A stretch of 54,975 bases of DNA from Candidatus Wildermuthbacteria bacterium (GCA_016186115.1 JACPMK010000002.1:340323-395297), one strand, 5' to 3'. Shown: positions 20,441-50,001, counted from the first letter of the stretch. The notes: generated from the sequence alone by a model not told the origin. Numbers and translations are program-made.

Positions 20441-20445
20441 AAAAA

Positions 20446-22742: not shown

Positions 22743-22766
22743 AAACTTATGCGACTACGAGATACA

Positions 22767-24625: not shown

Positions 24626-24637
24626 AATGGCATACTA

Positions 24638-26076: not shown

Positions 26077-26097
26077 ATAAAGTATAATGCTAATCTA

Positions 26098-27828: not shown

Positions 27829-27843
27829 AAAAAGATTTCCTTC

Positions 27844-28116
27844 CTAGGGCACAAAGGGATTGTCCTTGCCAATTTCTTCTGGCAAAGGAAATTGCGCCGA
27901 CGGAACCAAGATTATGCGATTCTTCAAAAGATCCTGCAATCCTTCTGTTTCAATAGAGATAGCCCTGCGGACAAACAAGGGCTGTGTTAACTCCTGCACT
28001 CCTGCGGTATTGATCTTTCCCTTTAAGAGGAAAGCAATCCACAGAAATCCCAAAGCTAGCAGCAGAAGAGGAAGGTATGCCTGGACGACGCGTCTTTGAA
28101 AGGAGAAAGTGGCCAT
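27844..28116 (-). CDS. Small single-pass membrane protein between pilO and pilB (PilP-position), unknown
   Basis: ORF 27844..28233 trimmed to ATG 28116 (MATFSFQRRVVQAYLPLLLLALGFLWIAFLL...) to remove the overlap with pilO. Confidence 0.4.
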   Translation of the reverse strand: MATFSFQRRVVQAYLPLLLLALGFLWIAFLLKGKINTAGVQELTQPLFVRRAISIETEGLQDLLKNRIILVPSAQFPLPEEIGKDNPFVP

Positions 28117-28120
28117 ACAA

Positions 28121-28693: not shown

Positions 28694-29222
28694 TGAAGTT
28701 AAGGGGGAATTTTAAGATAGCGCCGAAGATTGCTTTTCCATCTTTATCCATTCCTATCCCTGAAAACTGCACCTCTTGCAGCTGATTATTTTTCTTTCGG
28801 TCCTCCAAAAGATACACCTGCTCTTGAAGAGTGAGGAAGTCCGTTGCCTCCCCCGAAATTGACACTTCCATTGCTTCCACGTCAATTATCGCACTGTTCA
28901 AAACCACGCCTTTGTGAATATTCCTTTCAAGCGCGGCGAGAAGAGGAAGAACATTCTTTTCTCCAGAGACAACCGTGCGATAGTCGTTAATCTTGCGTTT
29001 ATACCCCTGCATATTCTTTTCAAGATCGAGCTCTTTTTCTGAACCGGTCTGACGGAATTCTGCTTCCAGAGTACGGCTTTCTTTATCTCGGATACCGCCC
29101 AAATATTTTAAAATCCCGTAGGAAAAAAGCGTGACGACAAAAGCAATAATCGAAAGCACGAACATCGCCTTTATCCAAGGGATAGTCGCAAGAAGTGATT
29201 TTTTCTTTGGGATAATGTCCAT
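28686..29222 (-). CDS. pilN: PilN-like pilus alignment protein
   Basis: 178 aa. Short cytoplasmic N-terminus, TM, coiled coil, VVLNSAIID...ISGEA motif. Follows pilM. Confidence 0.6.
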   Translation of the reverse strand: MDIIPKKKSLLATIPWIKAMFVLSIIAFVVTLFSYGILKYLGGIRDKESRTLEAEFRQTGSEKELDLEKNMQGYKRKINDYRTVVSGEKNVLPLLAALERNIHKGVVLNSAIIDVEAMEVSISGEATDFLTLQEQVYLLEDRKKNNQLQEVQFSGIGMDKDGKAIFGAILKFPLNFNE

Positions 29223-29225
29223 ATA

Positions 29226-30320
29226 TTATTCAAACCCCCGAAGCGCCATGCCTGCTGCAATTGCGTAGGCGGGCCCCATTTTTTGAAGCGTCTCTTCCAA
29301 AATCGAGGGATAAAAAATATTCCGGAATGGCTGAACCAGCTCCACCGAGGGTTGCGAACCATTTTCCGCAGCTCCTGCAATCTCTGCGAAATGCTGCTGG
29401 AAATATTCCCGCAGACCGGGGAGCAAAGACGTTCCTCCTGCGATAACCATTTTTTCAATCGGCGTGTCATCAATTTCCCTGAAATTGCGCACCACCTTTT
29501 GGGTCTCCCGCCAGATTGATTCTGCCAACGGCAGCAGCAGCTCTACTGTTCCTGCTTTGAGCTGCAATCCCTTTTCCATCTTTAACTTCTCTGCCTCTTC
29601 AAATGAAACCTGTAAAGAGCTTGCGATTCTTTCGGAAATGGTATTTCCCGCAATATCGAAACTGTGGGAAATTCGTAGCGTACCCTTGGTCACAACGCTC
29701 ACGGTTGTGCTTTGAGCTCCTATGTCCATCATAATCACTCCTCCCTGTTCTTCGCTAGATACAGAGGAACGTAAAATCCCGAAAACCTCTGCCTCCAACG
29801 CCACCAAATTGAGGTTTGCGATCTTTGCAATGGTTTGATATTGCTGAATAACATCATTGGGCACTGCGGCCATTAAGATATTGAACCACCGGTAATCACT
29901 ATCTGGCTTTTGTACTACCTGCCAATCAAGAGTCACCTCTGACAAAGGAATCGGCACATGCCGCCGCGCCTCAAAAGTTACCGCGTTCGGAAGTTCTTGG
30001 GCAGTCATCGGCGGAAGTTTGAAATTGGTAAAAAATGTAGAAAAATCAGGGATAGAAAAAATTGCCTTCTTGGCGCGCATGTGCCCCTCCTGAATAATTG
30101 CGTCGATCGCTCGCGCAACTTCTTTGCCAGACAACACCAATGTGTTACGCTCAAAAGTACGGAAAGGAGTGCCGTAGAGAACTGCGCTTTTCAGTTCGCC
30201 GTAATTTTTAAGAGTTCTTCTTTCTCCCCAACCCGACAACTCCACTACTTTCACCGCGGAGGTGCCGACATCTATTCCAAGGAAATTTTTTGGGAAGAGC
30301 TTAAATTGTTGCAATATCAT
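29226..30320 (-). CDS. pilM: PilM, actin-like ATPase of the pilus alignment complex
   Basis: 364 aa. GIDVGTSAVKVVEL and MDIGAQSTTVSV phosphate motifs; IAGGTSLLPGL. Confidence 0.85.
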   Translation of the reverse strand: MILQQFKLFPKNFLGIDVGTSAVKVVELSGWGERRTLKNYGELKSAVLYGTPFRTFERNTLVLSGKEVARAIDAIIQEGHMRAKKAIFSIPDFSTFFTNFKLPPMTAQELPNAVTFEARRHVPIPLSEVTLDWQVVQKPDSDYRWFNILMAAVPNDVIQQYQTIAKIANLNLVALEAEVFGILRSSVSSEEQGGVIMMDIGAQSTTVSVVTKGTLRISHSFDIAGNTISERIASSLQVSFEEAEKLKMEKGLQLKAGTVELLLPLAESIWRETQKVVRNFREIDDTPIEKMVIAGGTSLLPGLREYFQQHFAEIAGAAENGSQPSVELVQPFRNIFYPSILEETLQKMGPAYAIAAGMALRGFE

Positions 30321-37080: not shown

Positions 37081-39210
37081 ATGCTAGAACTCGCAAAAAC
37101 CTACAACGCAAAAGAAATTGAAGACAAAATATACAAGCTCTGGGAAAAGAGCGGATTTTTTAATCCGAATAAGTTGCCCAGAACATACAAAAAGCCGTTC
37201 ACTATTATCATGCCGCCGACTAATGCCAATGGCTCTTTGCATGCGGGACACGGTTTAGTGTTAACGATTGAAGACATTATGATTCGCTATAAAAGAATGC
37301 GGGGGTATAAAACATTATGGCTTCCCGGTTTAGATCACGCCGGATTTGAAACTCAAGTTGTGTACGAAAGACAACTGGAAAAAGAGGGCCGGTCGCGTTT
37401 CACCATGAAGCCGGGGGATCTCTATCAAGAAATCATGGAGTTCACCATGCGCAACAAAAAGAACATCGAAGACCAAACAAAAAAGATAGGATCATCTTGC
37501 GATTGGTCGCGCGAAAAATTCACGCTCGATGCCGATATTATTAAAACCGTGTATTCCACATTCAAGAAACTATACAACGATGGTTTGGTGTACCGCGGAA
37601 GAAGAATCGTTCACTGGTGTCCCAAGCACCAGACATCTCTCTCTGATTTGGAAACAATCGATAAAAAGCAGACAGACAAATTGTACTATTTGCAATACGG
37701 CCCCTTTACCATAGCCACTGCCCGCCCCGAAACCAAATTCGGCGATAAATATGTAGTTATGCATCCCGACGACAAAAGATATAAAGATTACAAGCACGGC
37801 CAGAAAATAGAGCTGGAATGGATAAACGGCAAGGTTACTGCGACGGTCATTAAGGACAAGGCAATTGACATGTCTTTTGGCACGGGAGTAATGACTATTA
37901 CTCCCTGGCATGATGCGGTTGACTTTGATATCGCCGAACGCCATAGCTTAGACAAAGAACAAATTATAGATTTTCAAGGGCGCCTACTGCCCATTGCCGG
38001 AGAATTTGCCGGAATGAAAATTGGAGAAGCTCGCCCCAAAATCGTTGAAAAATTGCAGGCGAAGGGGCTACTCGTAAAAATAGATGAAAATTATACGCAT
38101 GTTGTAAAAACCTGCTACAAATGCGGCGCGCTCATCGAGCCCCAAATAAAAGACCAGTGGTTTGTGAAAATGAAACCATTGGCGGAACCCGCCATCGAAG
38201 CAATTAAGAAAAATAAAATCAGGTTCATACCGGCCCATTACAAAAAAATCTCCCTCCACTGGCTACAAAATATTATTGACTGGAACATTTCAAGACAAAT
38301 TGTCTGGGGCATTCCCATACCCGCAAAGATTTGCGACAGTTGCGGAGCCGGAATTGTCGATATTGAGAACAAAATTTCTGCTTGCCACAAATGCAATGGG
38401 TCCGTCCGAAAAGAAACCGATACCTTTGACACCTGGTTTTCTTCCGGACAGTGGCCGTTCGCCGCACTGGGATACCCTTCCTCCAAAGATTACAAAACAT
38501 TCTACCCGACTCAAGTCATGGAAACTGCGGGAGAAATTATCTTTTTCTGGGTATGCCGCATGATCATGCTCGGCCTCTACGTAAGCAAGAAAATTCCCTT
38601 TGAAAATGTATACCTCCATGGCTTGGTGCTGGACGCGAAAGGCCAAAAAATGAGCAAGAGCCGAGGAAATGTGATTAACCCCTTGGATTTAACGGAGAAG
38701 TACGGAACAGATGCATTTAGAATAGGAATGGTTGTGGGAAATACGCCGGGTACTTCTCTGGCGTTAAACGAAGACAGAATTCGCGGATACAAGAATTTTG
38801 CGAACAAGATTTGGAACGCTTCCCGATTTGTGCTCATGAATGTGAAAGATTACAAACCAGGTACGCGAGTAGTTTTAAATCAAAAACAGAAAAAAACGCT
38901 GGCTGATTTTAAAAAAGAGGTAAAAGAAATAGAAAAGCTCATGGATTCTTTTAAGTTTTATATTGCTGCAGAAAAAATCTACCACTATTTTTGGCACACA
39001 TTCTGCGACAACATTATAGAGGAAAATAAAACAAAATTATCTGGCACGGCAAAAGAAAGAAGGGCAAGCCAATATCTGCTTTTGGAGATTCTTTCTTCTT
39101 CCTTAAAGATTCTTCACCCTTTCATGCCCCTTATAACGGAAGAAATCTACCAGCAATTGCCCCTGAAAAATAAGAAGAAAACATTAATGATCGAACAATG
39201 GCCACAATAA
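37081..39210 (+). CDS. valS: Valine--tRNA ligase (short form without C-terminal coiled coil)
   Basis: 709 aa. HIGH-type PPTNANGSLHAGHG, KMSKSRGN, LHPFMPLITEEIY near the C-terminus. Confidence 0.9.
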   Translation: MLELAKTYNAKEIEDKIYKLWEKSGFFNPNKLPRTYKKPFTIIMPPTNANGSLHAGHGLVLTIEDIMIRYKRMRGYKTLWLPGLDHAGFETQVVYERQLEKEGRSRFTMKPGDLYQEIMEFTMRNKKNIEDQTKKIGSSCDWSREKFTLDADIIKTVYSTFKKLYNDGLVYRGRRIVHWCPKHQTSLSDLETIDKKQTDKLYYLQYGPFTIATARPETKFGDKYVVMHPDDKRYKDYKHGQKIELEWINGKVTATVIKDKAIDMSFGTGVMTITPWHDAVDFDIAERHSLDKEQIIDFQGRLLPIAGEFAGMKIGEARPKIVEKLQAKGLLVKIDENYTHVVKTCYKCGALIEPQIKDQWFVKMKPLAEPAIEAIKKNKIRFIPAHYKKISLHWLQNIIDWNISRQIVWGIPIPAKICDSCGAGIVDIENKISACHKCNGSVRKETDTFDTWFSSGQWPFAALGYPSSKDYKTFYPTQVMETAGEIIFFWVCRMIMLGLYVSKKIPFENVYLHGLVLDAKGQKMSKSRGNVINPLDLTEKYGTDAFRIGMVVGNTPGTSLALNEDRIRGYKNFANKIWNASRFVLMNVKDYKPGTRVVLNQKQKKTLADFKKEVKEIEKLMDSFKFYIAAEKIYHYFWHTFCDNIIEENKTKLSGTAKERRASQYLLLEILSSSLKILHPFMPLITEEIYQQLPLKNKKKTLMIEQWPQ

Positions 39211-40058
39211 GCCCTATTTTTCTTTTGCTTCTTGGATTAGTCCCTAGCGCAATCTGGCTGTTGTTTTATTTGAGAAAAGATGCCCACCCCGAGCCAAAAC
39301 ACATGGTTCTGCGCGTTTTCCTCTTGGGAATGCTGGCAACGTTTCCAGTGATCTTTCTTGAAAAAATAGTCAAAATTATTATTGACTGCGGCGATCTGGC
39401 AAAGTTTCTACGACTACCCTTCTCTTTACCCTCATGCGCTTCTCCTCTTTCTTCTTTTTTGCCAGAACCACTATTTTGGATTCTCTATTTTGTTATCGGG
39501 GTAGCGCTTATCGAAGAATTATTTAAATATCTTGCGGCGCGGTTTGGTTCGTTTTCCAATCCCAATCTTGACGAGCCGGTGGATGTCATGATCTATATGA
39601 TTGTCTCTGCATTGGGATTTGCCGCGCTCGAAAATATGCTCTTAATCACCCAACTTCTTTCTAACACTCCTACGCCTGCCTCTCCTTCAGAAATTGTCTG
39701 GGTTGTTGCGCTCCGTTTCCTTGAAGCAACTTCTCTGCATGCGCTCGCTTCGGGAATATTCGGCTATGCGCTTGCATTTTCGCTTTTTCAACGGAGGCAC
39801 CATGCCATGTTCTATTTTCTGCCGGGGCTGGCAGTCGCAACTCTCTTGCATGGAGTGTTTAACTTTTATATAGTATCAGTAGAAACAGTAGAAAAAGAAA
39901 ACCTCTTTCCTTTTCATATACTCTTGATCTTCGCTCTTTTGGCAATAGGACTTTTTGTATCACTCGGATTTCAACAGCTAAAAAGAATAATCCCCACAAC
40001 CAATAATGTCGCCTCATCAATCTCTTCAAACCCAACCCTCGCTCCAAGAAAAAAGTGA
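39198..40058 (+). CDS. PrsW-family intramembrane metalloprotease
   Basis: 286 aa. Multi-pass membrane protein. EELFKY and HALASGIFGY motifs. 13-nt overlap with valS. Confidence 0.7.
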   Translation: MATISPIFLLLLGLVPSAIWLLFYLRKDAHPEPKHMVLRVFLLGMLATFPVIFLEKIVKIIIDCGDLAKFLRLPFSLPSCASPLSSFLPEPLFWILYFVIGVALIEELFKYLAARFGSFSNPNLDEPVDVMIYMIVSALGFAALENMLLITQLLSNTPTPASPSEIVWVVALRFLEATSLHALASGIFGYALAFSLFQRRHHAMFYFLPGLAVATLLHGVFNFYIVSVETVEKENLFPFHILLIFALLAIGLFVSLGFQQLKRIIPTTNNVASSISSNPTLAPRKK

Positions 40059-40482
40059 AGAAAAGAAAAAAATCCCGATCAAAGAAGAACCGGCAGAAAA
40101 AGAGACCCGCTCCCAAAAAGAAGGAAACGAAGGAAAGGATTGGCTGGTTGCAGAAGGAGAGCTCGCGATTGATATGTATCAAACAGAAAGCGAAATTGTG
40201 ATGCAGGCAGCAATCGCCGGCATCGGAAGCAACGACCTCGAAGTTATCATCGAAAAAGATATTGTGACTATCAGCGGAGAACGAAGAAATCCCCTTGATC
40301 AGGAATCCAAGGAGTATTTTTATCAGGAATGTTTTTGGGGACCGTTCTCGCGCCAAATAATTCTGCCCGAAGAAGTGGACGTTGCCAAGGCAGAAGCAAC
40401 AATCAAAAACGGCATCTTCACTCTGCGCATCCCCAAGGACCAAGAAAAAATCAGAGTCAAAAAAATCAAAGTAAAAGGATAA
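40006..40482 (+). CDS. Hsp20/alpha-crystallin small heat-shock protein
   Basis: 158 aa. Alpha-crystallin core LAIDMYQTESEIVMQAAIAGIGSNDLEVIIEKDIVTISGER...GIFTLRIPK. 53-nt overlap with the PrsW gene. Confidence 0.8.
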   Translation: MSPHQSLQTQPSLQEKSEEKKKIPIKEEPAEKETRSQKEGNEGKDWLVAEGELAIDMYQTESEIVMQAAIAGIGSNDLEVIIEKDIVTISGERRNPLDQESKEYFYQECFWGPFSRQIILPEEVDVAKAEATIKNGIFTLRIPKDQEKIRVKKIKVKG

Positions 40483-40626: not shown

Positions 40627-40660
40627 AAACGATGGAAGATATGAATATCTTCCATCGTTT
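40627..40660 (-). terminator. Hairpin terminator after 40684..41070
   Basis: Perfect 16-bp stem AAACGATGGAAGATAT/ATATCTTCCATCGTTT with a 2-nt loop. The minus strand continues TTTTATTTG. Confidence 0.7.
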
Positions 40661-40683: not shown

Positions 40684-41070
40684 CTATGGCGTTCCGATAA
40701 AGGTCGCTATAATGTTGGGGAAAACAAATGCAAGAATTGCTACGATAATGCCGACTGCTGCCCACATCAAGATTCCTCTTGCCTGATTTGTCTTTTCTGG
40801 ACTCCCTGCTGAAGTAAGAAAAAGAAAGGCGGCATAAAGCACCATAAAAACAGAAACAACAATAAGAACGGCAAAAACCCAGTTTGCGATAGTTCTCAAG
40901 AGTTGAAGCCACTCTCCGGGCGTATCAACACTGGTTGCGCTAGGAGGAGTAATGGTGGGCTGCGGTTGGTTTGGTCCGGGTGGTGGTAACTCGATAGCAA
41001 ATGCCGCTTGACTCAATATCCCTACAGCAAATACAGCGATAATGAGGATAGCAAAAATCTTTTTGATCAT
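40684..41070 (-). CDS. VirB2/TrbC-like (T4SS-pilin-like) small membrane protein with Pro/Thr-rich N-terminal segment
   Basis: 128 aa. Signal peptide, PPPGPNQPQPTITPPSATSVDTPG, then two hydrophobic helices joined by the loop FLTSAGSPEKTNQARG. Confidence 0.6.
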   Translation of the reverse strand: MIKKIFAILIIAVFAVGILSQAAFAIELPPPGPNQPQPTITPPSATSVDTPGEWLQLLRTIANWVFAVLIVVSVFMVLYAAFLFLTSAGSPEKTNQARGILMWAAVGIIVAILAFVFPNIIATFIGTP

Positions 41071-41129
41071 AGAGATTTATAAACAACAGTTACTATAAAA
41101 ATGCGACCTTTCTTAATGTGTATCAAAAA

Positions 41130-41387
41130 CTACATTCCAAAGATATTTTCAATTGTAGTACTGATTCCCTGCGCTAATAATATTATAACAAATCCTATTA
41201 CTGCCCACAACAAGATTGACTTTGCTTTGGCGAGCTTTTGAGGATCTCCTCCTGAAGTAAGGAAAGTAAACCCGGCATACAACACAACAAGTACAAGGAT
41301 CATGACAGAAAATGCGAAGAACCAATTATAAATTGTGGTAATAGTACCGAAAAGAGTATCCTGACCGGGTAAATTATTATAAGTCAT
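41130..41387 (-). CDS. VirB2/TrbC-like (T4SS-pilin-like) small membrane protein
   Basis: 85 aa. Helix-loop-helix WFFAFSVMILVLVVLYAGFTFLTSGGDPQKLAKAKSILLWAVIGFVIILLA. Paralogous to 40684..41070. Confidence 0.6.
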   Translation of the reverse strand: MTYNNLPGQDTLFGTITTIYNWFFAFSVMILVLVVLYAGFTFLTSGGDPQKLAKAKSILLWAVIGFVIILLAQGISTTIENIFGM

Positions 41388-41453
41388 ACCGATGCTAATT
41401 GATTTATTCTAGCATTTATGTCAAGCAGATCAATTCCCTTCTCTGTGGAAAAT

Positions 41454-41462
41454 TGATATAAT
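41454..41462 (+). promoter_or_regulatory. Extended -10 element upstream of the GT39 gene
   Basis: TGaTATAAT lies 20 nt upstream of ATG 41483. Confidence 0.4.
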
Positions 41463-41482
41463 GCTCACATTATGCAGCATTG

Positions 41483-42829
41483 ATGAATATGGCCTTTATA
41501 AAATTTAAAAAGGAAATCCTTTTTCTTGCTCTTCTCCTTTCCTTCAGCCTTGCAACTCATTTTCTATTTCTCGGGCATCCCAGTGAGGTAGTATTCGATG
41601 AATACCACTATGGAAAATTTGTGAACGGGTATCTGGAAGGAAAGTATTTTTACAATATTCATCCTCCGCTTGCCACTCAATTGATTACCTTGGGAGGATG
41701 GCTTGACGGATATCAAACCCCAAAATTTTCTTTTGAGACCATCGGGGGAGTATTTTCCGATTCCTCATATCTCGGCCTGCGCTTTTTCCCTGCGTTAGCC
41801 GGCAGCTTGATTCCCCTGGCGTTGTATTTTTTTCTCAAGAGCATTGGCGCGCCATTCCGCGCAGCTTTCTTGGCGGGCGCATTGATTTCGTTAGACAATG
41901 CCCTTCTTGCTCAATCGCGGCTTGCGCTTCCCGACTCCATCCTTTTGCTCCTTGGAATTCTTGGCCTCGGTTTCTTTTTTCTCGGCCGCCGCAACAACTA
42001 TAAGACCATTTTTCTTCTGTTTGCTGGTATTTTTTTTGCCCTAAGCTTTTCCGTAAAATGGACCGGATTTGCCTTTTTGGGGCTTGCAGGAGTTATTACT
42101 CTTTTCGATCTCATAAAAATATTGTTCTTATCCTCATTCCGCGCCGTGGCTTTCCCTTTGATCAAATCGTTTCTCTTCCTGTTCCTTATCCCAATTGCAA
42201 TATATTTTGAAATCTACAATATCCATTTTGCGCTTCTCCCAAATCCGGGGCCCGGCAATCCGTATATGTCCAAAGAATTTAACGAGGGAAACCTCACCAA
42301 TATGGAAAAATTTATTGAGATTAATCAGATAAACTACACCATCAACAAAGGATTCGCCGCAACGCATCCCTATGGCAGCAAATGGTATACCTGGCCCTTC
42401 ATGTCTCGCCCCATTTACTATTGGAATAACGACGGCGCCACCGAGAAGATATACTTCCTTGGCAATCCTGTTGTCTGGTGGGGCTCAACGCTTACATTGT
42501 TGCTTTTGCCCATTCTGTTGTTCTTCAAACAACTTTGGAAAGAACGTATTGTGCTTATATTGGCTGCAGGATATATCGTTAGTTTTGTGCCATTTCTCAT
42601 TGTCTCCCGCGTCATGTTTCTCTACCACTATCTTATTCCCTTGATATTCGCGGTCTCGTTATTTGCTTATCTTGCAACGACAATAAAACCGAGATACGCA
42701 AAGATTCTCTCTCTTCTTCTTGCCTTGGCAGCTCTTATTTCCTTTTTCTACTTTGCGCCCCTTACCTACGGCTTCCCCTTAGACAAAGCGCAATTTGAAA
42801 ATCGCATGTGGCTCTCCACATGGCCCTAA
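41483..42829 (+). CDS. Family-39 glycosyltransferase (dolichyl/polyprenyl-phosphate-mannose protein mannosyltransferase, PMT-like)
   Basis: ORF 41480 (TTG); ATG 41483. VFDEYHYGKFVNGYL....NIHPPLATQL is the PMT DE-loop signature. About 11 TM helices. Confidence 0.8.
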   Translation: MNMAFIKFKKEILFLALLLSFSLATHFLFLGHPSEVVFDEYHYGKFVNGYLEGKYFYNIHPPLATQLITLGGWLDGYQTPKFSFETIGGVFSDSSYLGLRFFPALAGSLIPLALYFFLKSIGAPFRAAFLAGALISLDNALLAQSRLALPDSILLLLGILGLGFFFLGRRNNYKTIFLLFAGIFFALSFSVKWTGFAFLGLAGVITLFDLIKILFLSSFRAVAFPLIKSFLFLFLIPIAIYFEIYNIHFALLPNPGPGNPYMSKEFNEGNLTNMEKFIEINQINYTINKGFAATHPYGSKWYTWPFMSRPIYYWNNDGATEKIYFLGNPVVWWGSTLTLLLLPILLFFKQLWKERIVLILAAGYIVSFVPFLIVSRVMFLYHYLIPLIFAVSLFAYLATTIKPRYAKILSLLLALAALISFFYFAPLTYGFPLDKAQFENRMWLSTWP

Positions 42830-44734
42830 TTAGGGAGAGATTCCTCCAAGGATCCCTGTGACTATTTCGATTAACGCCTTGGAGAAAATAACAATTGCAA
42901 ATCCAATAATAGACCAGGTAATAATGTTCTTGGCTCTGGTTACTCTTGCCGGATCGCCTCCCGAAGTAAAGAAGAAAAATCCACCAATCAAAATCATGAG
43001 CGGGAAAAGAATAAAGGTAAGCTTGAGGATGAAATCGATCACCCCCTTGAGGAGATCGGGGAAAGAATTGACATTCTTCAGAGGATTTTCAAATTTAATC
43101 AGCGTCCCTCCCGGCGGATTCTGCGTCGAACTCTGTTGAGGAGTTCCCGCTGCCACCCCTCCTCCAAAAACTGCCGCGCTCCCAATTTGAGGATTCTCAA
43201 CTTTCACTACGCTTGGAAAGTTTCCTGCTGCAGTTGGTGCAAAACGAATTGTCACGTTTTGACTGGTCCCTTTTGCCAAATTATAGGCACACCCGCTCAC
43301 GCAAGAAAATGGAGCAGTTGTAGAAATAGATCCACCGGCTGAACCTGCCGGACTTGAAAGATCATGGGTAAGAGTAAAAGTGATATCTTTTGTTGTCCCC
43401 ACGTCTATATTGCCGAAATCAGAGCTCGAAGGAGTAAAAATAAACACAGCAACGTTGCCGCCAGCAATAGTAACGGTGCCAAAGTTAAAACTCAATACAT
43501 TCTGCCGAGTACCCTCTACTTTCACCTGATAGCTTCCGGCTGCGGAGTAATTACATCGTTCATTAAAATCATAAGGAAAACTATTTGCCGTTTCTGTTGC
43601 CTCCCATACGCCGTCATTCGTACAATCGAGTCGTACGGTTGCTGCGCCTGCTGCGTTCCCTCCCGCGGCCACAGTAATTTTTACATTATTCAATGGCGCG
43701 GGACCAGAAGCAGGACTGGGCGTTACATTCGAAATATTGAACGTTACTGCCCCGATTCCTCTTCCGGAAACAGCTGCGCTTCCCGTATTAGGCGAAGAAA
43801 CTGCTAGGGTTTTAGAGAAATTTCCTTGGTTGGTCGGCGCAAAACGAATGATAACCTCTTGACCTTCCTCTCGCGACAAACCGAATGTACATCCACTTAT
43901 ACAAGAGAATGGGGCATCGTCTGGAATCGAGCCCGAAGCAAAAGCCGATGGGCTTGAGGAGCTGTGAACGAGGAAAAAAGTAGCATCTTTCTTCTGGCCG
44001 ACATCTACATTACCAAAATCATAACTTGAAGGCGAAAAAGAAAAAATAGGACTATTCGACTGGACAGTAAAACTTCCCGCTGGTATTGCGGTGGAGCCGA
44101 CGTTATTTGCCTTGTCGGTTGCCATGGCATAGTACCGAACAGTTTGGCCTACGCTATAGGTACGCGTCAAGGAACAAGTTGAATTATTCGTACAAATCTG
44201 CGAGGCATCGGCATAGGAACCATCGCCGTTTTCATCAACCGAAATAGTGATATTTGCAATGCCGCTTGCATCACTTGCATCTGCGGTAAATTTTACCTGC
44301 CCCGGAGAAGGATTACCTGAAGGAGAGTGCGATATCGAAATGCTCGGAGGAGTCGTGTCTTGCTGCTGGGCCGCAGAAACAGTAACATTCGTACCCGAGC
44401 TTGTGGGATCGAACTTGGAACCATCAGCATCTGAACATTGAGCATAGACCCAATAGACACCCGTTGAAGAAAACGCATAACTAACCGAAGCGGTGTTGCC
44501 AGAAATAGTCATCTGCACCTGGCCTGCTGGATGAATAAAATAACAGGAAAAGAGCGGGGGCTTTGTGGCGGAGACCTGAAGAGAAAAGGTAGTTGGAACC
44601 CCTGCGGTTGCGACATCGGGAGCAATGTGGGTATCGTATGTTACTGTTGCATTGCTTGCCGAAGGGAAAAGAAACCAAACCCCAACAAACAAAAGGGCGA
44701 ACAAAAAGAATAGAAGAGCGTGGTGTTTATTCAT
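42830..44734 (-). CDS. Ig-like-repeat surface protein fused to a C-terminal VirB2/T4SS-pilin-like module
   Basis: ORF to 44782, trimmed to ATG 44734 (MNKHHALLFFLFALLF...). Duplicated ~100-aa modules F(S/I)F(S/T)PSS.DFGN(V/I)DVG..KD.TF.L.H...SP....G.I....PFSC(I/V)SGC...L......V.IRFAPT..GNF. C-terminal IGGFFFFTSGGDPARVTRAKNIITWSIIGFAIVIF. Confidence 0.75.
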   Translation of the reverse strand: MNKHHALLFFLFALLFVGVWFLFPSASNATVTYDTHIAPDVATAGVPTTFSLQVSATKPPLFSCYFIHPAGQVQMTISGNTASVSYAFSSTGVYWVYAQCSDADGSKFDPTSSGTNVTVSAAQQQDTTPPSISISHSPSGNPSPGQVKFTADASDASGIANITISVDENGDGSYADASQICTNNSTCSLTRTYSVGQTVRYYAMATDKANNVGSTAIPAGSFTVQSNSPIFSFSPSSYDFGNVDVGQKKDATFFLVHSSSSPSAFASGSIPDDAPFSCISGCTFGLSREEGQEVIIRFAPTNQGNFSKTLAVSSPNTGSAAVSGRGIGAVTFNISNVTPSPASGPAPLNNVKITVAAGGNAAGAATVRLDCTNDGVWEATETANSFPYDFNERCNYSAAGSYQVKVEGTRQNVLSFNFGTVTIAGGNVAVFIFTPSSSDFGNIDVGTTKDITFTLTHDLSSPAGSAGGSISTTAPFSCVSGCAYNLAKGTSQNVTIRFAPTAAGNFPSVVKVENPQIGSAAVFGGGVAAGTPQQSSTQNPPGGTLIKFENPLKNVNSFPDLLKGVIDFILKLTFILFPLMILIGGFFFFTSGGDPARVTRAKNIITWSIIGFAIVIFSKALIEIVTGILGGISP

Positions 44735-44740
44735 TCCTCT

Positions 44741-44769
44741 AGTATAGAATCCCCAAGTAGATGAGGCAA
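44741..44769 (-). promoter_or_regulatory. Promoter placed for a leaderless transcript of 42830..44734
   Basis: Minus strand: TTGCCT (44769..64), 17 nt, TATACT (44746..41), 6 nt, ATG 44734. Confidence 0.5.
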
Positions 44770-44786
44770 GAGTGAAATTCACAAAA

Positions 44787-47252
44787 CTAAATACAGGCGG
44801 CAGAGGCCGCTTTGTCTCCCTCTTCCAGCTTCATAATTCTTACCCCTTGGGTAGATCTGCTGATTTTGGGGATCGAATTAATTGCTGTGCGAATCACATG
44901 TCCTTTGCGGGAAATAACGACAAGGTCTTCCTCGTCTGGCGCCAACACCTTTGCATAGACCAGCAATCCTGTTTTCGAGGTTACATTTGCGGTTTTAATC
45001 CCAGACCCGCCTCTCCCCTGCAAACGATACTCTTTGACATCCGTTCTTTTGCCGTAGCCATTTTCAGTTAGCACAAGAAGATATGCGGGTTGCGCGGTCT
45101 GGGGCTGAACAACATCCATTCCTATCACTTCGTCTCCTTTCTTCAAACGAATGGCGTGAATGCCGGCTGCCGGCCTGCCCATCGGCCGTATATCTTTTTC
45201 TCGGAACCTCACGGACTGGCCTTTTTTGGTGACAATAATAATTTCGTCTTGCCCGGTTGTTTTATGTACTGCCTGCAACGCATCGCCCTTCTTTAGGGTG
45301 ATGGCAATCAGCCCCGATTTACGAACGTTCTTGAAATCCTCGAGCGGCGTTTTCTTGATAAGGCCGTTCTTTGTCACCATGGTGAGATAGCGAACGCTCC
45401 CGGCTTCCTCGCTTTTGCCCAAGGCAAAAATCGACATTACTTTATCTTGAGGGGCCATCTCAAAAAAGTTCAAAAGCCCTCTTCCTTTTGATACGCGTGT
45501 GGCCTCGGGAATTTCATACACCGGGGAACGAAATACTTTTCCCGAGTCGGTGAAAACCAAAAATGAATCATGGGTTTGAGCGTACAGAAAATGCTCCACA
45601 ATGTCGTCTCCTGTTGTTTTCATCCCAACAACCCCTTTGCCGCCCCGCTTTTGCAATTTATAGGTAGAAGGATTAATGCGCTTGATGTATCCGCCTTGGG
45701 TAAGAGTAATCATTGTGTCCTCCTGCGGGATCAAGTCCTCCTCTGCAATCTCTCCCACGCCCTGCACATACACTCTCGTGCGGCGTTCGTCGCCAAAGGT
45801 TTGCTTTGCCTGCAACAATTCTTGTGTGATAATCGCATCGATTTTCTTTGGGCTGGCCAAAATTGCAGAAAATTCTTTGATTTTCGCCTGAACTTCTTTG
45901 AGTTCGTCTTCGATTCTCTTGCGCTCAAGCTTCGCCAATTGGGCCAAGCGCATGTCCAAAATCGCATTGGTCTGAATTTCGGTGAGCCGAAAACGTTTCA
46001 TTAACTTTACTTTTGCGTCGTCTCTGTCATCTGCGTGACGGATGATTTTGATTACCTCATCAATATTTGCCAAGCACTTATGCAACCCCTGCAAAATATG
46101 CTCTCTTTCCTTGGCCCGATCGAGCTCGTATTGCGTTCTGCGCACGATGACGTGCCGGCGATGGCTAAGGAAATACGAAAGCAATTCAGATAAAGAAAGA
46201 ACCTTGGGCTGAATCCCATCCACTAACGCGAGGGCATTGAGGTGATACGTTTTCTGCAAATCAGAGAATTTGTACAAACGATTTAGAATCTTCTGCGGGT
46301 AGGCATCTTTCTGCAGATCAAAGACAACGCGCAAGCCGTCTTTGTCTGACTCATCGCGGATATCCTTGATGCCATCGATTTTTTTCTCCTGCACCAAATT
46401 TGCAAACTGTTCAACCAGCGTTGCTTTGTTCACCTGATAAGGAATCTCGGTAATAATAATTTGAGGCCGTTTTCCTTCGCCTTCCACGATATCTGCTTTT
46501 CCCCGAACAACAATGGGGCCGTTGCCTTGTGAATATGCTTCGATAATTGCTTTGCGGTTATAAATAATGCCGCCGGTAGGAAAATCAGGCCCTTTCACAA
46601 ATTGAAAAAGGGTTTCTGTGGTTGCCTTGGGATTGCCGATGAGATACATGAGCGCATCAACGAGTTCACCAAGATTATGAGGCGGCATGTCTGTTGCCAT
46701 GCCAACCGCGATCCCCAAAGTTCCGTTGAGCAAAAGCTGAGGCAAGGGGGAAGGCAATACGGTCGGCTCTTTGCGCGTGCCATCGTAGTTATCTACGAAA
46801 TCAACGGTATTCTTGGCAATATCCCGCAGCGTTTCTTCTCCTATTCTCGACATTCGCGCCTCCGAGTATCGCATTGCCGCAGGAGGATCCCCGTCGATGG
46901 ATCCGAAGTTGCCTTGACCATCAATCAAAGGGTAGCGCATGGAAAAATCCTGCGCCATGCGCACGAGAGCGTCGTACACTGGAATGTCTCCATGAGGATG
47001 ATATCGCCCCAAGGTAGAGCCCACCACTGTTGCGGACTTGCGGTATTTTGCATTGTGGGTAAGGCCATCTTCGTACATTGCATACAAAATTCTGCGATGC
47101 ACTGGCTTTAATCCATCGCGCACATCAGGCAGAGCCCGCGCCACAATCACGGACATTGCGTAGTCAAGATAGGAAACTCTCATTTCCTCGGTTATCTCTC
47201 TTGGCTGCACCTGCCCCAGTGGCTGAATTTGTTTGGTATTATCTTGGGCCAT
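44787..47252 (-). CDS. gyrA: DNA gyrase subunit A
   Basis: 821 aa. DGLKPVHRR, active-site [18 protein letters not shown]-terminal beta-pinwheel repeats. Confidence 0.95.
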
Positions 47253-47454: not shown

Positions 47455-48110
47455 GATGGCTGAAGAAGAATAATTTGCATTTCCTCTGCGGGCAAATCCT
47501 TTGCTTTTAATACCAACTTGAGTTGGGGCTCAACTTCTTTCTTTCCCATCACTTTCAAAAAATCTTCAATGCCCTCTAATTGCACCTTCAATTTCGGCAA
47601 GCGATAGTGCATGGGGATAACGATCTTTGGTTCGATTTGATTAATGATATTCCGCGCGCCTTGGCCATCGATTGTGTACACTCCACCCACAGGGATAAAC
47701 AATATATCAATATTGCCGATTTGCTCCAATTGTTCCGAGGTCAATTCCTTTTGGCCAAGATCTCCTAAATGGCATAATTTCATTCCTTCTGCTTCGATCG
47801 TATAGATCGCGTTGAGGCCGCGTTCCTTCCCGTCGGAAGCATCATGAAAAGAAGAAATTCCCTCAACGAATACCTCCTTCACTTCGTATTCTCCGGGATT
47901 GGCAATACTAAAAGGAGGGATGCCTTTTAGGGCATTCCGATTGTTGTGATCATGATGTTCGTGAGTGATCAGCAAGAGATCGGCTTCCACGGAAGACATA
48001 TGCAATCCAATCGAATCCTGAAAAGGATCGATCAGAATGCGTACTTGCTCTTGTTTGCCTCGTGAAGCTGCCAAATAAAAACATGCTTGGCCTTTCCAAG
48101 AAATCTGCAT
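47451..48110 (-). CDS. Metallo-beta-lactamase-fold hydrolase (UPF0173-like)
   Basis: ORF to 48116. ATG 48110 (MQISWKGQACFY) fits the promoter geometry. HEHHDH metal motif. Confidence 0.8.
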   Translation of the reverse strand: MQISWKGQACFYLAASRGKQEQVRILIDPFQDSIGLHMSSVEADLLLITHEHHDHNNRNALKGIPPFSIANPGEYEVKEVFVEGISSFHDASDGKERGLNAIYTIEAEGMKLCHLGDLGQKELTSEQLEQIGNIDILFIPVGGVYTIDGQGARNIINQIEPKIVIPMHYRLPKLKVQLEGIEDFLKVMGKKEVEPQLKLVLKAKDLPAEEMQIILLQPS

Positions 48111-48118
48111 ACACATAT

Positions 48119-48146
48119 ATTATAGCATAATACCCTCCGCGTTCAA
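48119..48146 (-). promoter_or_regulatory. Promoter placed for a leaderless MBL-hydrolase/gyrA transcript
   Basis: Minus strand: TTGAAC (48146..41), 16 nt, TATAAT (48124..19), 8 nt, ATG 48110. Confidence 0.55.
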
Positions 48147-48167
48147 TGGCTTTCTAACCCCTTACCC

Positions 48168-48196
48168 TTGAAATTATTTTGCCGATTCTGTATAGT
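48168..48196 (+). promoter_or_regulatory. Promoter placed for a leaderless rpsA transcript
   Basis: TTGAAA (48168-73), 17 nt, TATAGT (48191-96), 7 nt, ATG 48204. The ORF-track TTG start is the -35 hexamer itself. Confidence 0.55.
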
Positions 48197-48203
48197 CAAC
48201 GAT

Positions 48204-49352
48204 ATGACAACAATGGCAAAACCGCAGTTTATTCAAAGGATAGAAATTCAAAGACCCTATAAGATAGGAGATATTGTAGAAGCTCCAGTTATTGCCATCG
48301 GAAGATCTGCGATCTATGTTGACCTTGCTCCCCAAGGAACTGGCATTGTATATGGGAAAGAATTTCTTGAAGAAAAAAGTACGCTCAAGAATGTCAAGAT
48401 AGGAGAGAAGATTACGGCAAAGGTTGTGGATATAGAAAATGAAGAGGGATATGTTGAACTTTCTCTCAAAGAAGCAGGGAGGCAGATCAACTGGGAGCGG
48501 CTTCGCGAGAAAAAAGAATCAGAAGAAATTATTCCCGTGAAAATTTTGAGCGCAAACAAAGGAGGCCTTCTTTCTGAACTCTACGGAATTGCCGCGTTTC
48601 TTCCTGTTTCCCAGCTTGCGCCAGAACATTATCCCAAAGTAGAAGGAGGAGATCCGGAGAAAATTCTCCACGAATTGCAAAAATTTACCGGCACAGAACT
48701 TCAGGTTCAAATTTTTGATATTGACCCAAAGGAAAATAAAATCATCCTTTCCGAAAGAGCCAAGGAACGCCTCAAGGTAAAAGAGCTCCTGCAGAATTAT
48801 CAAGTCGGCGATGTGGTCGAAGGAACAATTACCGGAGTAGTTGATTTTGGAGCATTTGTGAGCTTTGGCAAAGAAGGGGAGGAAATCGAAGGACTCATCC
48901 ATATTTCAGAAATTGACTGGCAGATTATCGAGGACCCCAGTAAATTTCTCGCGGCGGGCGACAAAATTGCGGCAAAAATTATTGATATTTCAAATGGCAG
49001 GGTATCGTTATCGCTCAAGGCGCTCAAAGAAGATCCTTGGAAAAACATTGGAGAGAAGTACAAGAAATTGGACTTTATTAAGGGAAAGGTTACCAAAATG
49101 AACCCCTACGGAGCATTTGTTGAAATCGAGCCGAAAATTCAGGGATTAGCGCACATTTCAGAATTTGGCACCAAAAAGAAAATGGAAGAAGAGCTCCTCG
49201 TTGGAGAAACCTATAACTTCCAAATTATCGACCTCAATCCTGCAGAGCATCGGATGAGTTTGCGTTTCGCCGCGAATCCAGAAATCGTTTCAACGCCAGA
49301 ATCCCCGCAGCCGAAACCAGAGCAAGAGAAAGCGCAACAAAAAGAGGGCTAG
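48204..49352 (+). CDS. rpsA: 30S ribosomal protein S1 (four S1 domains)
   Basis: Repeated S1 OB-fold motifs (G.iV.g.V......ga.V.l...GiEGliH.SE). Low-complexity C-terminal tail. Confidence 0.85.
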   Translation: MTTMAKPQFIQRIEIQRPYKIGDIVEAPVIAIGRSAIYVDLAPQGTGIVYGKEFLEEKSTLKNVKIGEKITAKVVDIENEEGYVELSLKEAGRQINWERLREKKESEEIIPVKILSANKGGLLSELYGIAAFLPVSQLAPEHYPKVEGGDPEKILHELQKFTGTELQVQIFDIDPKENKIILSERAKERLKVKELLQNYQVGDVVEGTITGVVDFGAFVSFGKEGEEIEGLIHISEIDWQIIEDPSKFLAAGDKIAAKIIDISNGRVSLSLKALKEDPWKNIGEKYKKLDFIKGKVTKMNPYGAFVEIEPKIQGLAHISEFGTKKKMEEELLVGETYNFQIIDLNPAEHRMSLRFAANPEIVSTPESPQPKPEQEKAQQKEG

Positions 49353-49971
49353 TATTCGTGGGCACAGAAGAGGACTGCTGAAAGTCCTTTTTTGTTTGTT
49401 CTTGCAGCGCAAGAATATCTGTGCCAAAAATACTATTTTGCGATCGAGGAGTTCCTACGCGAACAATGCTTGTTCCCCAATTTTTTGCGTCTGTCCCGGG
49501 CTCCGATGGATTGCGCCGCTCCATGGAAAATTTTGTTTCATTATCTCCTCCGTACCAGCCGCCTGCTGCATCAATTTCATCCACGATCTCGCCTTGTGCA
49601 TTTTTGAGTACAACGTTTTGCCCGGTATTGACGAATTTTCCGGTCAAATTTTCATACGACAAATCAAAGTTTGCGATCTTGTCAGAAGATACGATCAAAA
49701 AATATCCTTGCGCCGGAATGTTCCCGGCTAGGGGAATGCGAAAATCGAGCTGGTCGCGCGAAAGTTCAACTGCCCATCCCGCAAGAGAAACCTGCTGCTC
49801 TGCGGAGTTATACAATTCCAGCCATTCATATCTCCACCATTGCTTTTGCTCCACCCCTTCCACCGGACTTCCCATCCATACTATCTCGTTTATCACCACA
49901 TCACCTAATTCAGCCGATACAAAAAGAGGCGCACCGAACAACAAAGAGAAAAAGAAAGCTACATATTGCAT
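49234..49971 (-). CDS. Lamin-tail-domain (LTD) surface protein with signal peptide and C-terminal TM anchor
   Basis: 245 aa. VVINEIVWMGS....WLELYNSAEQQVSLAGWAV....IPAQGYFLIVS is the LTD signature. The C-terminal helix LFVALSLALVSAAGILAL is encoded inside the rpsA 3' end. Confidence 0.7.
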   Translation of the reverse strand: MQYVAFFFSLLFGAPLFVSAELGDVVINEIVWMGSPVEGVEQKQWWRYEWLELYNSAEQQVSLAGWAVELSRDQLDFRIPLAGNIPAQGYFLIVSSDKIANFDLSYENLTGKFVNTGQNVVLKNAQGEIVDEIDAAGGWYGGDNETKFSMERRNPSEPGTDAKNWGTSIVRVGTPRSQNSIFGTDILALQEQTKKDFQQSSSVPTNTSPLFVALSLALVSAAGILALKRFLDSRRNANSSDALQD

Positions 49972-50001
49972 GTTGCTTTACTATACTTCGCGTTTAAGAA
50001 T

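What the first reader, a model, noticed from the sequence alone, without database searches (positions are those of the whole stretch)
40684..44734. GT39 protein mannosyltransferase nested among three VirB2/T4SS-pilin-like modules, one fused to a 635-aa Ig-repeat protein
Seen in sequence: three proteins share a helix-loop-helix module.
- LYAAFLFLTSAGSPEKTNQARGILMWAAVGIIVAIL (40684..41070)
- LYAGFTFLTSGGDPQKLAKAKSILLWAVIGFVIILL (41130..41387)
- IGGFFFFTSGGDPARVTRAKNIITWSIIGFAIVIF (C-terminus of 42830..44734)

The third carries about 550 aa of duplicated Ig-like modules N-terminal to the pilin-like module. A PMT-type GT39 enzyme (DE..HPPL loop) sits between them, and its stop codon directly abuts the stop of the fusion gene (42829/42830).

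Established knowledge: VirB2/TrbC conjugative pilins have exactly this topology of two hydrophobic helices and a short polar loop. PMT enzymes O-mannosylate Ser/Thr-rich segments of exported proteins during translocation.

Inference: the cluster may encode a glycosylated pilin-like filament or membrane-anchored display scaffold. The large protein would use a pilin module as its anchor or polymerisation domain. The Pro/Thr-rich segment of the 128-aa paralogue and the many PT linkers in this window are candidate PMT substrates. No VirB4/VirD4 ATPase is present in the window.
Basis: partly seen in the sequence, partly recalled or inferred. Interest (0 to 1): 0.65.

Follow-up and report, generated by a model that had tools for sequence, protein, structure and literature searches.

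The report
Pilin-anchored Ig surface protein, unrelated mannosyltransferase
Three genes of an ultra-small groundwater bacterium (Patescibacteria) carry the conjugation-type (VirB2-like) pilin hairpin already known from this group, one of them as the C-terminal anchor of a 634-residue Ig-repeat surface protein, while the mannosyltransferase gene between them is a lineage-specific insertion, not a conserved partner.

Summary
Three proteins (128, 85 and 634 aa) each hold one two-helix module that scores above threshold for Pfam PF18895 T4SS_pilin. The gene between them is a genuine GT39 protein O-mannosyltransferase. The stop codons of GT39 and the fusion gene abut (TAATTA).

VirB2-like pilin arrays of Patescibacteria are published (PMC10633639, PMC12102498). 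The closest metagenomic relatives of these modules lie in the same place, downstream of gyrA, usually as gyrA, methyltransferase, solute-binding protein, pilin array. This is therefore a vertically kept, orphan chromosomal pilin array.

GT39 is absent from all 23 pilin-side loci. None of 36 GT39-relative loci has a pilin module within 6 kb. The GT39 adjacency is not conserved.

The 634-aa protein reads as signal peptide, about five beta-sandwich domains (two are 55% identical choice-of-anchor-D repeats), a Pro/Thr/Gln linker and a full pilin module. I read it as a surface adhesin anchored by a pilin hairpin, possibly co-assembling with free pilins.

I found no paper describing such modular pilins, but they recur in this scan and in the databases. 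No VirB4, VirD4 or VirB6 is in the window.

The parts
42830..44734 (-). 634-aa modular pilin: signal peptide, about five beta-sandwich domains, Pro/Thr/Gln linker, C-terminal T4SS_pilin hairpin
   Evidence: ORF. Pfam and NCBIfam hits. Hydropathy segments at residues 3-29, 561-593 and 603-633. Called as 634 aa on metagenome contigs.
44648..44734 (-). Predicted Sec signal peptide of the fusion (MNKHH..FPSASNA|TV), residues 1-29
   Evidence: Hydrophobic segment 3-29. The cleavage site was read by eye from the sequence; this is inference.
43745..44050 (-). Choice-of-anchor-D / HYDIN-like Ig domain, copy 1 (residues about 229-330)
   Evidence: Pfam PF22544, PF22073 and PF15780. 55% identical to copy 2.
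43145..43447 (-). Choice-of-anchor-D / HYDIN-like Ig domain, copy 2 (residues about 430-530)
   Evidence: NCBIfam NF012200 at 60 bits, above the cut-off of 45. Pairwise comparison.
42833..43090 (-). C-terminal T4SS_pilin module of the fusion, including the ENPL motif, two helices and the TSGGDPARVTRAKN loop
   Evidence: PF18895 at 32.7 bits. 79.1 bits against the 402-module HMM. AF2 helices 558-590 and 595-629 at pLDDT about 70.
41480..42829 (+). GT39 protein O-mannosyltransferase, bacterial type without a MIR domain. Antisense to the pilin genes. Lineage-specific insertion.
   Evidence: PMT and PMT_4TMC. Alignment to Pmt structures with the DE motif. Absent from syntenic relatives.
41130..41387 (-). 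85-aa free pilin (T4SS_pilin), without a signal peptide
   Evidence: PF18895 at 57.1 bits and TrbC at 18.8 bits. NF045849 at 42.9 bits, above the cut-off of 40. AF2 helical hairpin, pLDDT 88.
40684..41070 (-). 128-aa free pilin: signal peptide (..SQAAFA|IE), Pro/Thr-rich segment, T4SS_pilin module
   Evidence: PF18895 at 39.3 bits. Hydropathy segments 1-29, 54-90 and 96-128.
41406..41433 (-). Promoter-like site (TTGATC-16-TGnTAGAAT) upstream of the two free pilin genes
   Evidence: Consensus scan only. Weak evidence.
44741..44769 (-). Promoter-like site (TTGCCT-17-TATACT) 6 nt upstream of the fusion gene's ATG
   Evidence: Consensus scan only. Sequence read.
40627..40660 (.). 15-bp palindromic hairpin, terminator-like on both strands, between the 128-aa pilin gene and hsp20
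44787..47252 (-). gyrA, the conserved upstream synteny anchor of the pilin array
   Evidence: Pfam. gyrA lies upstream of pilin arrays in L044, L046, L049, L050, L052-L055, L062 and L063.
39198..40482 (+). prsW-like protease and hsp20, the downstream synteny anchors
   Evidence: Pfam. Same order and orientation in L046, L055 and L060-L063.

Best explanation
The locus is this genome's version of an orphan chromosomal array of VirB2-like (Pfam T4SS_pilin) pilin genes. Related Patescibacteria keep such an array immediately downstream of gyrA.

Two genes encode small free pilins. The first gene of the array encodes a modular pilin. A Sec signal peptide exports about 520 aa of beta-sandwich (Ig-like, choice-of-anchor-D) domains. 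A Pro/Thr/Gln linker follows. The C-terminal pilin hairpin then inserts with helix 1 running out-to-in, the positively charged TSGGDPARVTRAKN loop in the cytoplasm, and helix 2 running in-to-out.

The result is an Ig-stalk adhesin held at the membrane by a pilin subunit. Its layout matches a Gram-positive wall-spanning surface protein, with the pilin hairpin in the place of an LPXTG or other C-terminal anchor. Because the hairpin keeps the full family signature, the protein sits in the same membrane pool as the free pilins. It may be recruited with them by the T4SS encoded elsewhere in the genome, as a minor adhesive subunit or base.

The GT39 gene is a bona fide protein O-mannosyltransferase that was inserted here, antisense, in this lineage only. 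It is not a dedicated partner of the pilins. It may mannosylate their Pro/Thr-rich exported segments, as it may those of many other Sec substrates.

Shown: family membership, topology elements, the domain duplication, the conserved gyrA-linked position, and the non-conservation of GT39.
Inferred: surface display, adhesin role, any co-assembly into a pilus, and any glycosylation.
For: - Family: PF18895 above threshold for all three proteins and NF045849 for the 85-aa protein. Family members reach TrbC/VirB2 above threshold. AF2 predicts a confident helical hairpin for the 85-aa protein, pLDDT 88.
- Published context: VirB2-like pilin arrays of 2-11 genes are widespread in Patescibacteria, and in the one system tested experimentally (Southlakia epibionticum) the pilin genes are essential (PMC12102498; PMC10633639; PMC12857230).
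- Position: the closest metagenomic relatives of the modules lie downstream of gyrA (52-68% identical), often followed by hsp20 and prsW as here. They are usually preceded by a SAM methyltransferase and an SBP_bac_1 protein.
- Fusion anatomy: signal-peptide-like N-terminus and two C-terminal hydrophobic helices. Two choice-of-anchor-D domains, a domain family named for occurring with different C-terminal anchors. The fused module scores like the free ones, 79 against 82-90 bits.
- Recurrence: L051 carries a different ectodomain (DNRLRE) in front of a C-terminal module 43% identical to this one, again just after the methyltransferase gene. Database proteins carry TIG, fn3, PG_binding or CBM14 domains N-terminal to their modules.
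- GT39 not linked.
Against: - No experimental evidence exists for this or any Patescibacterial T4SS_pilin protein forming a filament.
- No VirB4, VirB6 or VirD4 is in the window.
- Sequence and fold comparison with solved conjugative pilins is not significant.
- The ectodomain could not be modelled, pLDDT 35, so "five Ig-like domains" rests on HMM hits for three of them and on beta-strand pattern for the rest.
- The pilin-side loci were retrieved with patterns taken from these modules, so they sample close relatives only.
- The GT39 relatives are at most 43% identical. A GT39-pilin link confined to very close relatives cannot be excluded.
Confidence: 0.6

Rival explanations
1. One reading: GT39 and the three pilin-module genes form one functional cluster that builds an O-mannosylated pilin-like filament or display scaffold.
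For: Physical nesting with abutting stop codons. A Pro/Thr-rich exported segment in the 128-aa pilin and Pro/Thr/Ser linkers in the fusion. Bacterial PMTs mannosylate such segments of Sec substrates (established knowledge from Actinobacteria). The GT39 is a real PMT with a DE motif.
Against: GT39 is antisense to all three pilin genes. 0 of 36 GT39-relative loci have a pilin module nearby. 0 of 23 pilin-relative loci have GT39, including syntenic gyrA-pilin-hsp20-prsW loci. GT39 neighbourhoods share nothing with each other.
Confidence: 0.12
2. The fusion is a true polymerising subunit. It co-assembles with the free pilins into a T4SS-type pilus and decorates its shaft or tip with Ig-like adhesin arms. 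The gyrA-linked array would then encode a core contact organelle.
For: The fused module keeps the whole family signature and scores like free pilins. It lies in an array with free pilins. In solved conjugative pili both termini of the subunit face outward (established knowledge), so an N-terminal appendage is topologically allowed. Another lineage has a different ectodomain on the same module at the same site.
Against: No filament of this family has been seen. A 520-aa appendage on every subunit is sterically unlikely, so it could only be a minor subunit. No T4SS gene lies within the window or within 8 kb of the syntenic arrays. Natural proteins with 2-17 covalently joined modules fit a membrane platform at least as well as a canonical pilus.
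Confidence: 0.25
3. The hairpin is only a generic two-helix membrane anchor, and the resemblance to T4SS pilins is convergent or compositional.
For: Short hydrophobic hairpins give weak, unspecific matches. Foldseek finds nothing significant and the profile finds no solved pilin.
Against: Curated thresholds of PF18895 are passed three times. Conserved polar loop positions (F..F.TS.G.P, A, W, G) are shared. The family bridges to TrbC above threshold. The closest database relative of the 85-aa pilin sits in a seven-gene pilin array next to a TrbL/VirB6-like gene. Published work finds these genes near virB4 in 1135 assemblies.
Confidence: 0.05

Closest known systems
VirB2-like pilin arrays of Patescibacteria (Pfam PF18895), e.g. 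the essential pilin genes inside the Southlakia epibionticum T4SS cluster SEML1_0006-0019, and the 441 arrays catalogued by Quinonero-Coronel et al. 2025 (PMC12102498)
   Same: Same Pfam family. Several divergent paralogues (28-40% identical) lie side by side in a chromosomal location in a Patescibacterium. There is no relaxase nearby.
   Different: This array is not next to virB4 or virB6 but downstream of gyrA. One member carries a 520-aa N-terminal ectodomain. A GT39 gene interrupts the array. The papers I could read describe neither extended pilins nor the gyrA-linked position.
Canonical conjugative pilins VirB2 / TrbC / TraA (Pfam PF04956)
   Same: Signal peptide followed by two hydrophobic helices joined by a short basic loop, about 70-80 mature residues. 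Both termini are expected outside.
   Different: Only a sub-threshold TrbC hit for one protein (18.8 against 27.9 bits). No significant sequence or fold match to solved pili. The host is a monoderm. Nothing indicates cyclisation or N-acetylation.
Mbov_0395 / MMCAP2_0565 family pilin-like conjugal transfer proteins of Mycoplasma ICEs (NCBIfam NF045849)
   Same: The 85-aa protein passes the model's cut-off (42.9 against 40 bits). This is a small two-helix protein of a wall-less or monoderm T4SS.
   Different: The other two proteins are below cut-off. No ICE context exists here.
Choice-of-anchor-D surface proteins (NCBIfam NF012200) and Gram-positive LPXTG-type wall-spanning adhesins
   Same: Signal peptide, repeated Ig-like domains, a Pro/Thr-rich linker, then a C-terminal anchoring element.
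   Different: The anchoring element is a complete T4SS pilin hairpin, not an LPXTG, PEP-CTERM or T9SS sorting signal.
Protein O-mannosyltransferases of family GT39 (yeast Pmt1/Pmt2, PDB 6p25; actinobacterial Pmt)
   Same: PMT and PMT_4TMC domains. The DE motif in the first loop is aligned. The size and lack of a MIR domain match bacterial enzymes.
   Different: It scores far below the NCBIfam equivalog cut-off (47.6 against 800 bits). The donor lipid and substrates in Patescibacteria are unknown.

Membership tests
Pfam PF18895 T4SS_pilin (monoderm/Patescibacterial VirB2-like pilins) | Match to the family HMM above the curated gathering score | tested here: met
   39.3, 57.1 and 32.7 bits against 26.6.
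Pfam PF18895 T4SS_pilin (monoderm/Patescibacterial VirB2-like pilins) | Two hydrophobic helices joined by a short polar, basic loop (helical hairpin) | tested here: met
   Hydropathy. AF2 of the 85-aa protein gives H9-44 and H49-82 at pLDDT 88. The fusion gives H558-590 and H595-629.
Pfam PF18895 T4SS_pilin (monoderm/Patescibacterial VirB2-like pilins) | N-terminal signal peptide in front of the hairpin | tested here: inconclusive
   Present by hydropathy and by eye in the 128-aa protein and the fusion. Absent from the 85-aa protein, whose stop-to-stop frame is only 92 aa. A few relatives also lack it. No dedicated predictor was available.
Pfam PF18895 T4SS_pilin (monoderm/Patescibacterial VirB2-like pilins) | Genomic association with T4SS core genes (virB4, virB6, prgI) | tested here: not met
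None in the 55-kb window or within 8 kb of the syntenic arrays. A relative's array lies next to a TrbL-like gene.
Pfam PF18895 T4SS_pilin (monoderm/Patescibacterial VirB2-like pilins) | Assembly into an extracellular filament | not testable with these tools
   Needs microscopy or biochemistry. No multimer prediction was available.
Pfam PF04956 TrbC/VirB2 (canonical conjugative pilins) | Match above the gathering score | tested here: not met
   Only the 85-aa protein hits, at 18.8 against 27.9 bits. Multi-module relatives do pass at 55-84 bits.
Pfam PF04956 TrbC/VirB2 (canonical conjugative pilins) | Sequence or fold similarity to solved conjugative pilins | tested here: inconclusive
   The profile against PDB finds no pilin. 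Foldseek finds nothing at E<=0.001. Among the 50 matches printed, one of the highest TM-scores, and the highest between two chains of similar length (0.66/0.67), is the Aeropyrum pernix conjugation pilus 8dfu, at E=4.1.
GT39 protein O-mannosyltransferase (PMT) | PMT N-terminal domain and PMT_4TMC C-terminal domain | tested here: met
   148 and 135.9 bits.
GT39 protein O-mannosyltransferase (PMT) | Asp-Glu motif in the first extracytoplasmic loop | tested here: met
   vvfDEyhygkf aligns with VVFDEVHFGKF of chains 9i5k_A and 6p25_A.
GT39 protein O-mannosyltransferase (PMT) | NCBIfam equivalog PrMnsylTfPmt (NF058602) cut-off | tested here: not met
   47.6 against 800 bits. It is a distant member, not the actinobacterial equivalog.
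GT39 protein O-mannosyltransferase (PMT) | MIR luminal domain (eukaryotic PMTs) | tested here: not met
   The alignment skips residues about 331-546 of the eukaryotic chains. Bacterial PMTs also lack it (established knowledge), so this does not exclude the family.
   0 of 36 from the GT39 side. 0 of 23 from the pilin side.

The most novel reading that the evidence does not exclude
Paceibacteria-type Patescibacteria keep, downstream of gyrA, a core gene set for a VirB2-derived surface organelle. In relatives the set is methyltransferase, solute-binding protein, pilin array. Free pilins would co-assemble with modular pilins whose exchangeable ectodomains (Ig / choice-of-anchor-D here, DNRLRE in L051, TIG, fn3, PG-binding or CBM14 elsewhere) are displayed on or at the base of a conjugative-type filament. 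That would be an adhesin-armed T4SS pilus in a monoderm. In this lineage it might additionally be O-mannosylated by the inserted GT39.
Probability: 0.2. Interest if true: 0.75.

Novelty: new variant of a known kind. Interest (0 to 1): 0.42.

Why it matters
Patescibacteria live attached to other microbes. In the one system tested experimentally (Southlakia epibionticum), the T4SS and its VirB2-like pilins are essential, yet nobody knows what the pilins build or touch.

A pilin hairpin carrying a 520-aa Ig-type ectodomain gives a concrete candidate for the contact-making part. A second lineage has a different ectodomain on the same module at the same chromosomal site. This offers a testable design rule: a constant pilin module with a swappable outer part.

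Two further results help annotation. The array is a conserved gyrA-linked chromosomal feature. The mannosyltransferase is not part of it, which removes a misleading guilt-by-association inference.

Tried and rejected
VirB4, VirB6 and VirD4 could not be sought in the rest of the genome, and no phylum-wide census was possible.
- Word-index homologue searches were almost empty. The whole fusion found 4 proteins, only its own sequence in full. Its module region found only itself. The 85-aa pilin found itself plus P0154.
- A three-sequence module HMM found nothing in the GT39 loci. I did not trust that and rebuilt a 402-module HMM. The result was still zero.
- The 45-sequence alignment A2 was too diverse for the search for related loci, so I used A1 instead.
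- A profile search of PDB sequences gave only designed helical proteins at E>0.7.
- Foldseek of the pilin model gave no significant match. Helical hairpins are too simple for this test.
- AF2 of the 634-aa protein with a 5-sequence alignment failed, with mean pLDDT 34.9. I ran no fold search on it.
- A self-BLAST of the fusion showed no off-diagonal hit. A direct pairwise comparison of the two repeats did.
- PADLOC gave no defence-system match.
- The sequencing-run search listed only groundwater metagenome runs, all labelled 'DNA?', and no RNA run, so expression could not be checked.
- I considered that the 85-aa gene is a 5'-truncated remnant of the GT39 insertion. I rejected this as unproven, because several relatives also lack a signal peptide and the ORF is identical on independent contigs of the same population.

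Full report

**1. The observation**

The four ORFs exist as described:
- 40684..41070(-), 128 aa
- 41130..41387(-), 85 aa
- 41480..42829(+), 449 aa
- 42830..44734(-), 634 aa

The ATG at 44734 gives a signal-peptide-like N-terminus, and gene callers used it on near-identical metagenome contigs. A GTG at 44782 would add 16 residues.

Each of the three minus-strand proteins contains one copy of a roughly 75-residue module. All three pass the curated threshold of Pfam PF18895 T4SS_pilin, at 39.3, 57.1 and 32.7 bits against 26.6. The 85-aa protein also has a sub-threshold TrbC/VirB2 hit (18.8 against 27.9 bits). It passes NCBIfam NF045849, "Mbov_0395 family pilin-like conjugal transfer protein", at 42.9 against 40 bits.

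The modules share F..F.TS.G.P, A, I, W and G positions and are 28-40% identical. A scan of the six-frame translation of the window finds exactly these three copies.

The middle gene is a real GT39 enzyme, with PMT at 148 bits and PMT_4TMC at 136 bits. It aligns to solved Pmt1, Pmt2 and Pmt4 structures with the DE motif conserved and the MIR domain absent. The two convergent stop codons abut as TAA|TTA at 42827-42832.

The fusion protein has two choice-of-anchor-D / HYDIN-like Ig domains. They are 55% identical over 102 residues, E=2e-37. It also has a weak Big_7-like domain and two further beta-rich segments without family hits.

**2. What is already known**

PF18895 is the model used to catalogue VirB2-like pilins of Patescibacteria. 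Quinonero-Coronel et al. (PMC12102498) found such pilins in 1,948 assemblies that also have VirB4. In 1,135 of them the pilin gene lies near virB4. They also found 441 arrays of 2-11 divergent pilin genes.

In Southlakia epibionticum the pilin genes inside the T4SS cluster are essential (PMC10633639). A 2025 review calls these the only monoderm T4SSs with potential pili (PMC12857230). The passages I read in these papers do not mention pilins fused to large ectodomains. The full-text searches found no paper that describes such fusions or a link to GT39.

**3. Family size and architectures**

A profile of the three modules finds 51,316 representative clusters (50% identity) at E<=1e-3. Of the 150 best-scoring representatives, 147 carry two or more tandem modules in one polypeptide, up to at least nine by my HMM and 17 by the tool's count. 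That ranking is biased, because scores add up over modules.

Several of these proteins have 130-960 residues in front of the modules, with TIG, fn3, PG_binding_1 or CBM_14 domains. I also sampled 49 distinct module-bearing ORFs from metagenome loci:

| Architecture | ORFs |
|---|---|
| Simple (signal peptide plus one module) | 38 |
| Multi-module (one of these also has a C-terminal extension) | 6 |
| Single module with C-terminal extension | 3 |
| N-terminal extension over 100 aa | 2 |

Extended or modular pilins are therefore a recurring minority architecture. Notes from this scan report similar fusions in at least 95 other genomes. Most of those have the module at the N-terminus. They are unchecked leads.

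**4. Context and conservation, from the GT39 side**

Thirty-six loci encoding GT39 relatives (25-43% identical, mostly Paceibacteria-type MAGs) were fetched with up to 6 kb on each side. None contains a T4SS_pilin module at E<0.01 with a 402-module HMM. The same HMM scores the window's own modules at 79-90 bits. None shares any neighbouring gene with the window.

**5. Context and conservation, from the pilin side**

Twenty-three metagenome loci encoding the closest relatives of the modules were fetched. No GT39 is present in any of them. They do show clear synteny with the window.
- gyrA (52-68% identical) lies upstream on the same strand in L044, L046, L049, L050, L052-L055, L062 and L063.
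- hsp20 and prsW follow on the opposite strand in L046, L055 and L060-L063.
- valS and tsaD, or the GT2 gene, lie beyond, as in the window.

Between gyrA and the first pilin gene, most relatives have a SAM methyltransferase of about 180 aa and an SBP_bac_1 solute-binding protein of about 436 aa. The window has neither.

The first pilin of these arrays is often extended. It is 250-460 aa, either with two modules or with a Cys-rich C-terminal extension. L051 is the closest analogue of the fusion. Directly after the methyltransferase gene it has a signal-peptide-bearing DNRLRE-domain ORF overlapping a 541-aa ORF. That ORF ends in a module 43% identical to the fusion's module. This is probably one frameshifted gene. 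Its ectodomain is unrelated to the one here.

No VirB4-like protein lies in these syntenic loci. In contrast, P0154, the nearest database relative of the 85-aa pilin (45% identical), sits in a seven-gene pilin array followed by a TrbL/VirB6-like gene.

My conclusion is that the array downstream of gyrA is an inherited, orphan chromosomal pilin array. The GT39 gene is inserted into it, antisense, only in this lineage. The ten contigs of the same population carrying the identical arrangement are not independent evidence.

**6. Structure**

With a 35-sequence alignment built from locus-derived pilins, AF2 predicts the 85-aa protein as a helical hairpin. The helices are H9-44 and H49-82, with mean pLDDT 88.1.

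Foldseek against the PDB gives nothing significant. Among the 50 matches printed, one of the highest TM-scores, and the highest between two chains of similar length (0.66/0.67 over 75 columns), is the conjugation pilus of Aeropyrum pernix (8dfu), at E=4.1. This is suggestive, not a test.

The fusion protein could not be modelled (pLDDT 34.9). Only the C-terminal hairpin, H558-590 and H595-629, reaches about 70.

**7. How it most likely works**

What the sequence shows:
- a cleavable-looking signal peptide (MNKHH...SASNA|TV);
- about 520 exported residues;
- a GTPQQSSTQNPPGG linker;
- an ENPL motif;
- helix 1, the basic loop TSGGDPARVTRAKN, helix 2 and a short tail.

By the positive-inside rule, and by the established topology of VirB2 and TraA (both termini outside, loop inside), the ectodomain is extracytoplasmic. 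This layout is that of a wall-spanning monoderm surface protein whose C-terminal sorting signal is replaced by a pilin hairpin. The domain family's own name, choice-of-anchor D, fits this.

I therefore read the protein as a pilin-anchored Ig-stalk adhesin. The fused module is as well conserved as the free ones. It also retains an N-boundary NP[LIVMF] motif. That motif occurs at 28% of first modules, against 3% of later modules and 6% background. So I consider it more than a generic anchor. It could dock to, or co-assemble with, the free pilins. That step is inference, and I give it about 25-30%.

GT39 may mannosylate the Pro/Thr-rich exported segments. Nothing ties it specifically to these genes.

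**8. Verdict**

- The assignment to T4SS/VirB2-like pilins is supported and belongs to a published kind.
- The fusion with a C-terminal module and the gyrA-linked conserved position are variants I did not find described in the papers I could search.
- The proposed GT39-pilin functional cluster is not supported.
- Interest is moderate.

Noticed in passing
L050:6336-8156 (+); also P0005-P0153: Natural "polypilins": single uninterrupted ORFs with 2 to at least 9 (17 by the tool's count) tandem T4SS_pilin hairpins. One example is a 606-aa protein with 7 modules inside a 14-module locus downstream of gyrA. 147 of the 150 best-scoring representatives are of this kind. The papers read describe arrays of genes, not covalently joined modules.
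   Followed up: partly
L044, L046, L049, L050, L052-L054 (relatives); window 42830-47252: Conserved unit of gyrA, SAM methyltransferase (about 180 aa), SBP_bac_1 protein (about 436 aa) and T4SS_pilin array in related Patescibacteria. The window lacks the methyltransferase and the SBP.
   Followed up: partly
window 43060-43075 (ENPL of the fusion); first modules of family members: An NP[LIVMF] motif sits just before helix 1 in 28% of first modules, against 3% of later modules and 6% background. It may mark the mature N-terminus or a processing site. In the fusion it follows the 520-aa ectodomain.
   Followed up: partly
window 41130-41408: The 85-aa pilin has no signal peptide, and its stop-to-stop frame is only 92 codons. 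It lies 92 nt from the divergently oriented GT39 start, so the GT39 insertion may have removed its 5' part. Some relatives also lack a signal peptide.
   Followed up: partly
L051:391-2566: Two overlapping ORFs, a signal peptide plus DNRLRE domain and a 541-aa ORF ending in a pilin module. They look like one gene of about 720 aa split by a frameshift in a low-coverage contig.
   Followed up: no
window 13558-30320: A complete type IV pilus (T4P, not T4SS) cluster is present. It holds pilM, pilO, pilB, a response regulator, pilT, pilC, a major pilin, prepilin peptidase and a minor-pilin operon led by a PKD / Ig_Rha78A_N protein.
   Followed up: no
window 1-9646: A cohesin-domain protein (926-1537), a 780-aa TPR protein and a 1833-aa protein with no family hit except a weak collagen match.
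   Followed up: no
window about 48000-50000: Cumulative GC skew reaches its minimum here. Gene orientation switches from mostly minus to plus between the MBL/gyrA operon and rpsA. This could be a replication origin or terminus, and published work notes T4SS genes near the origin in some Patescibacteria. No dnaA lies in the window.
   Followed up: no
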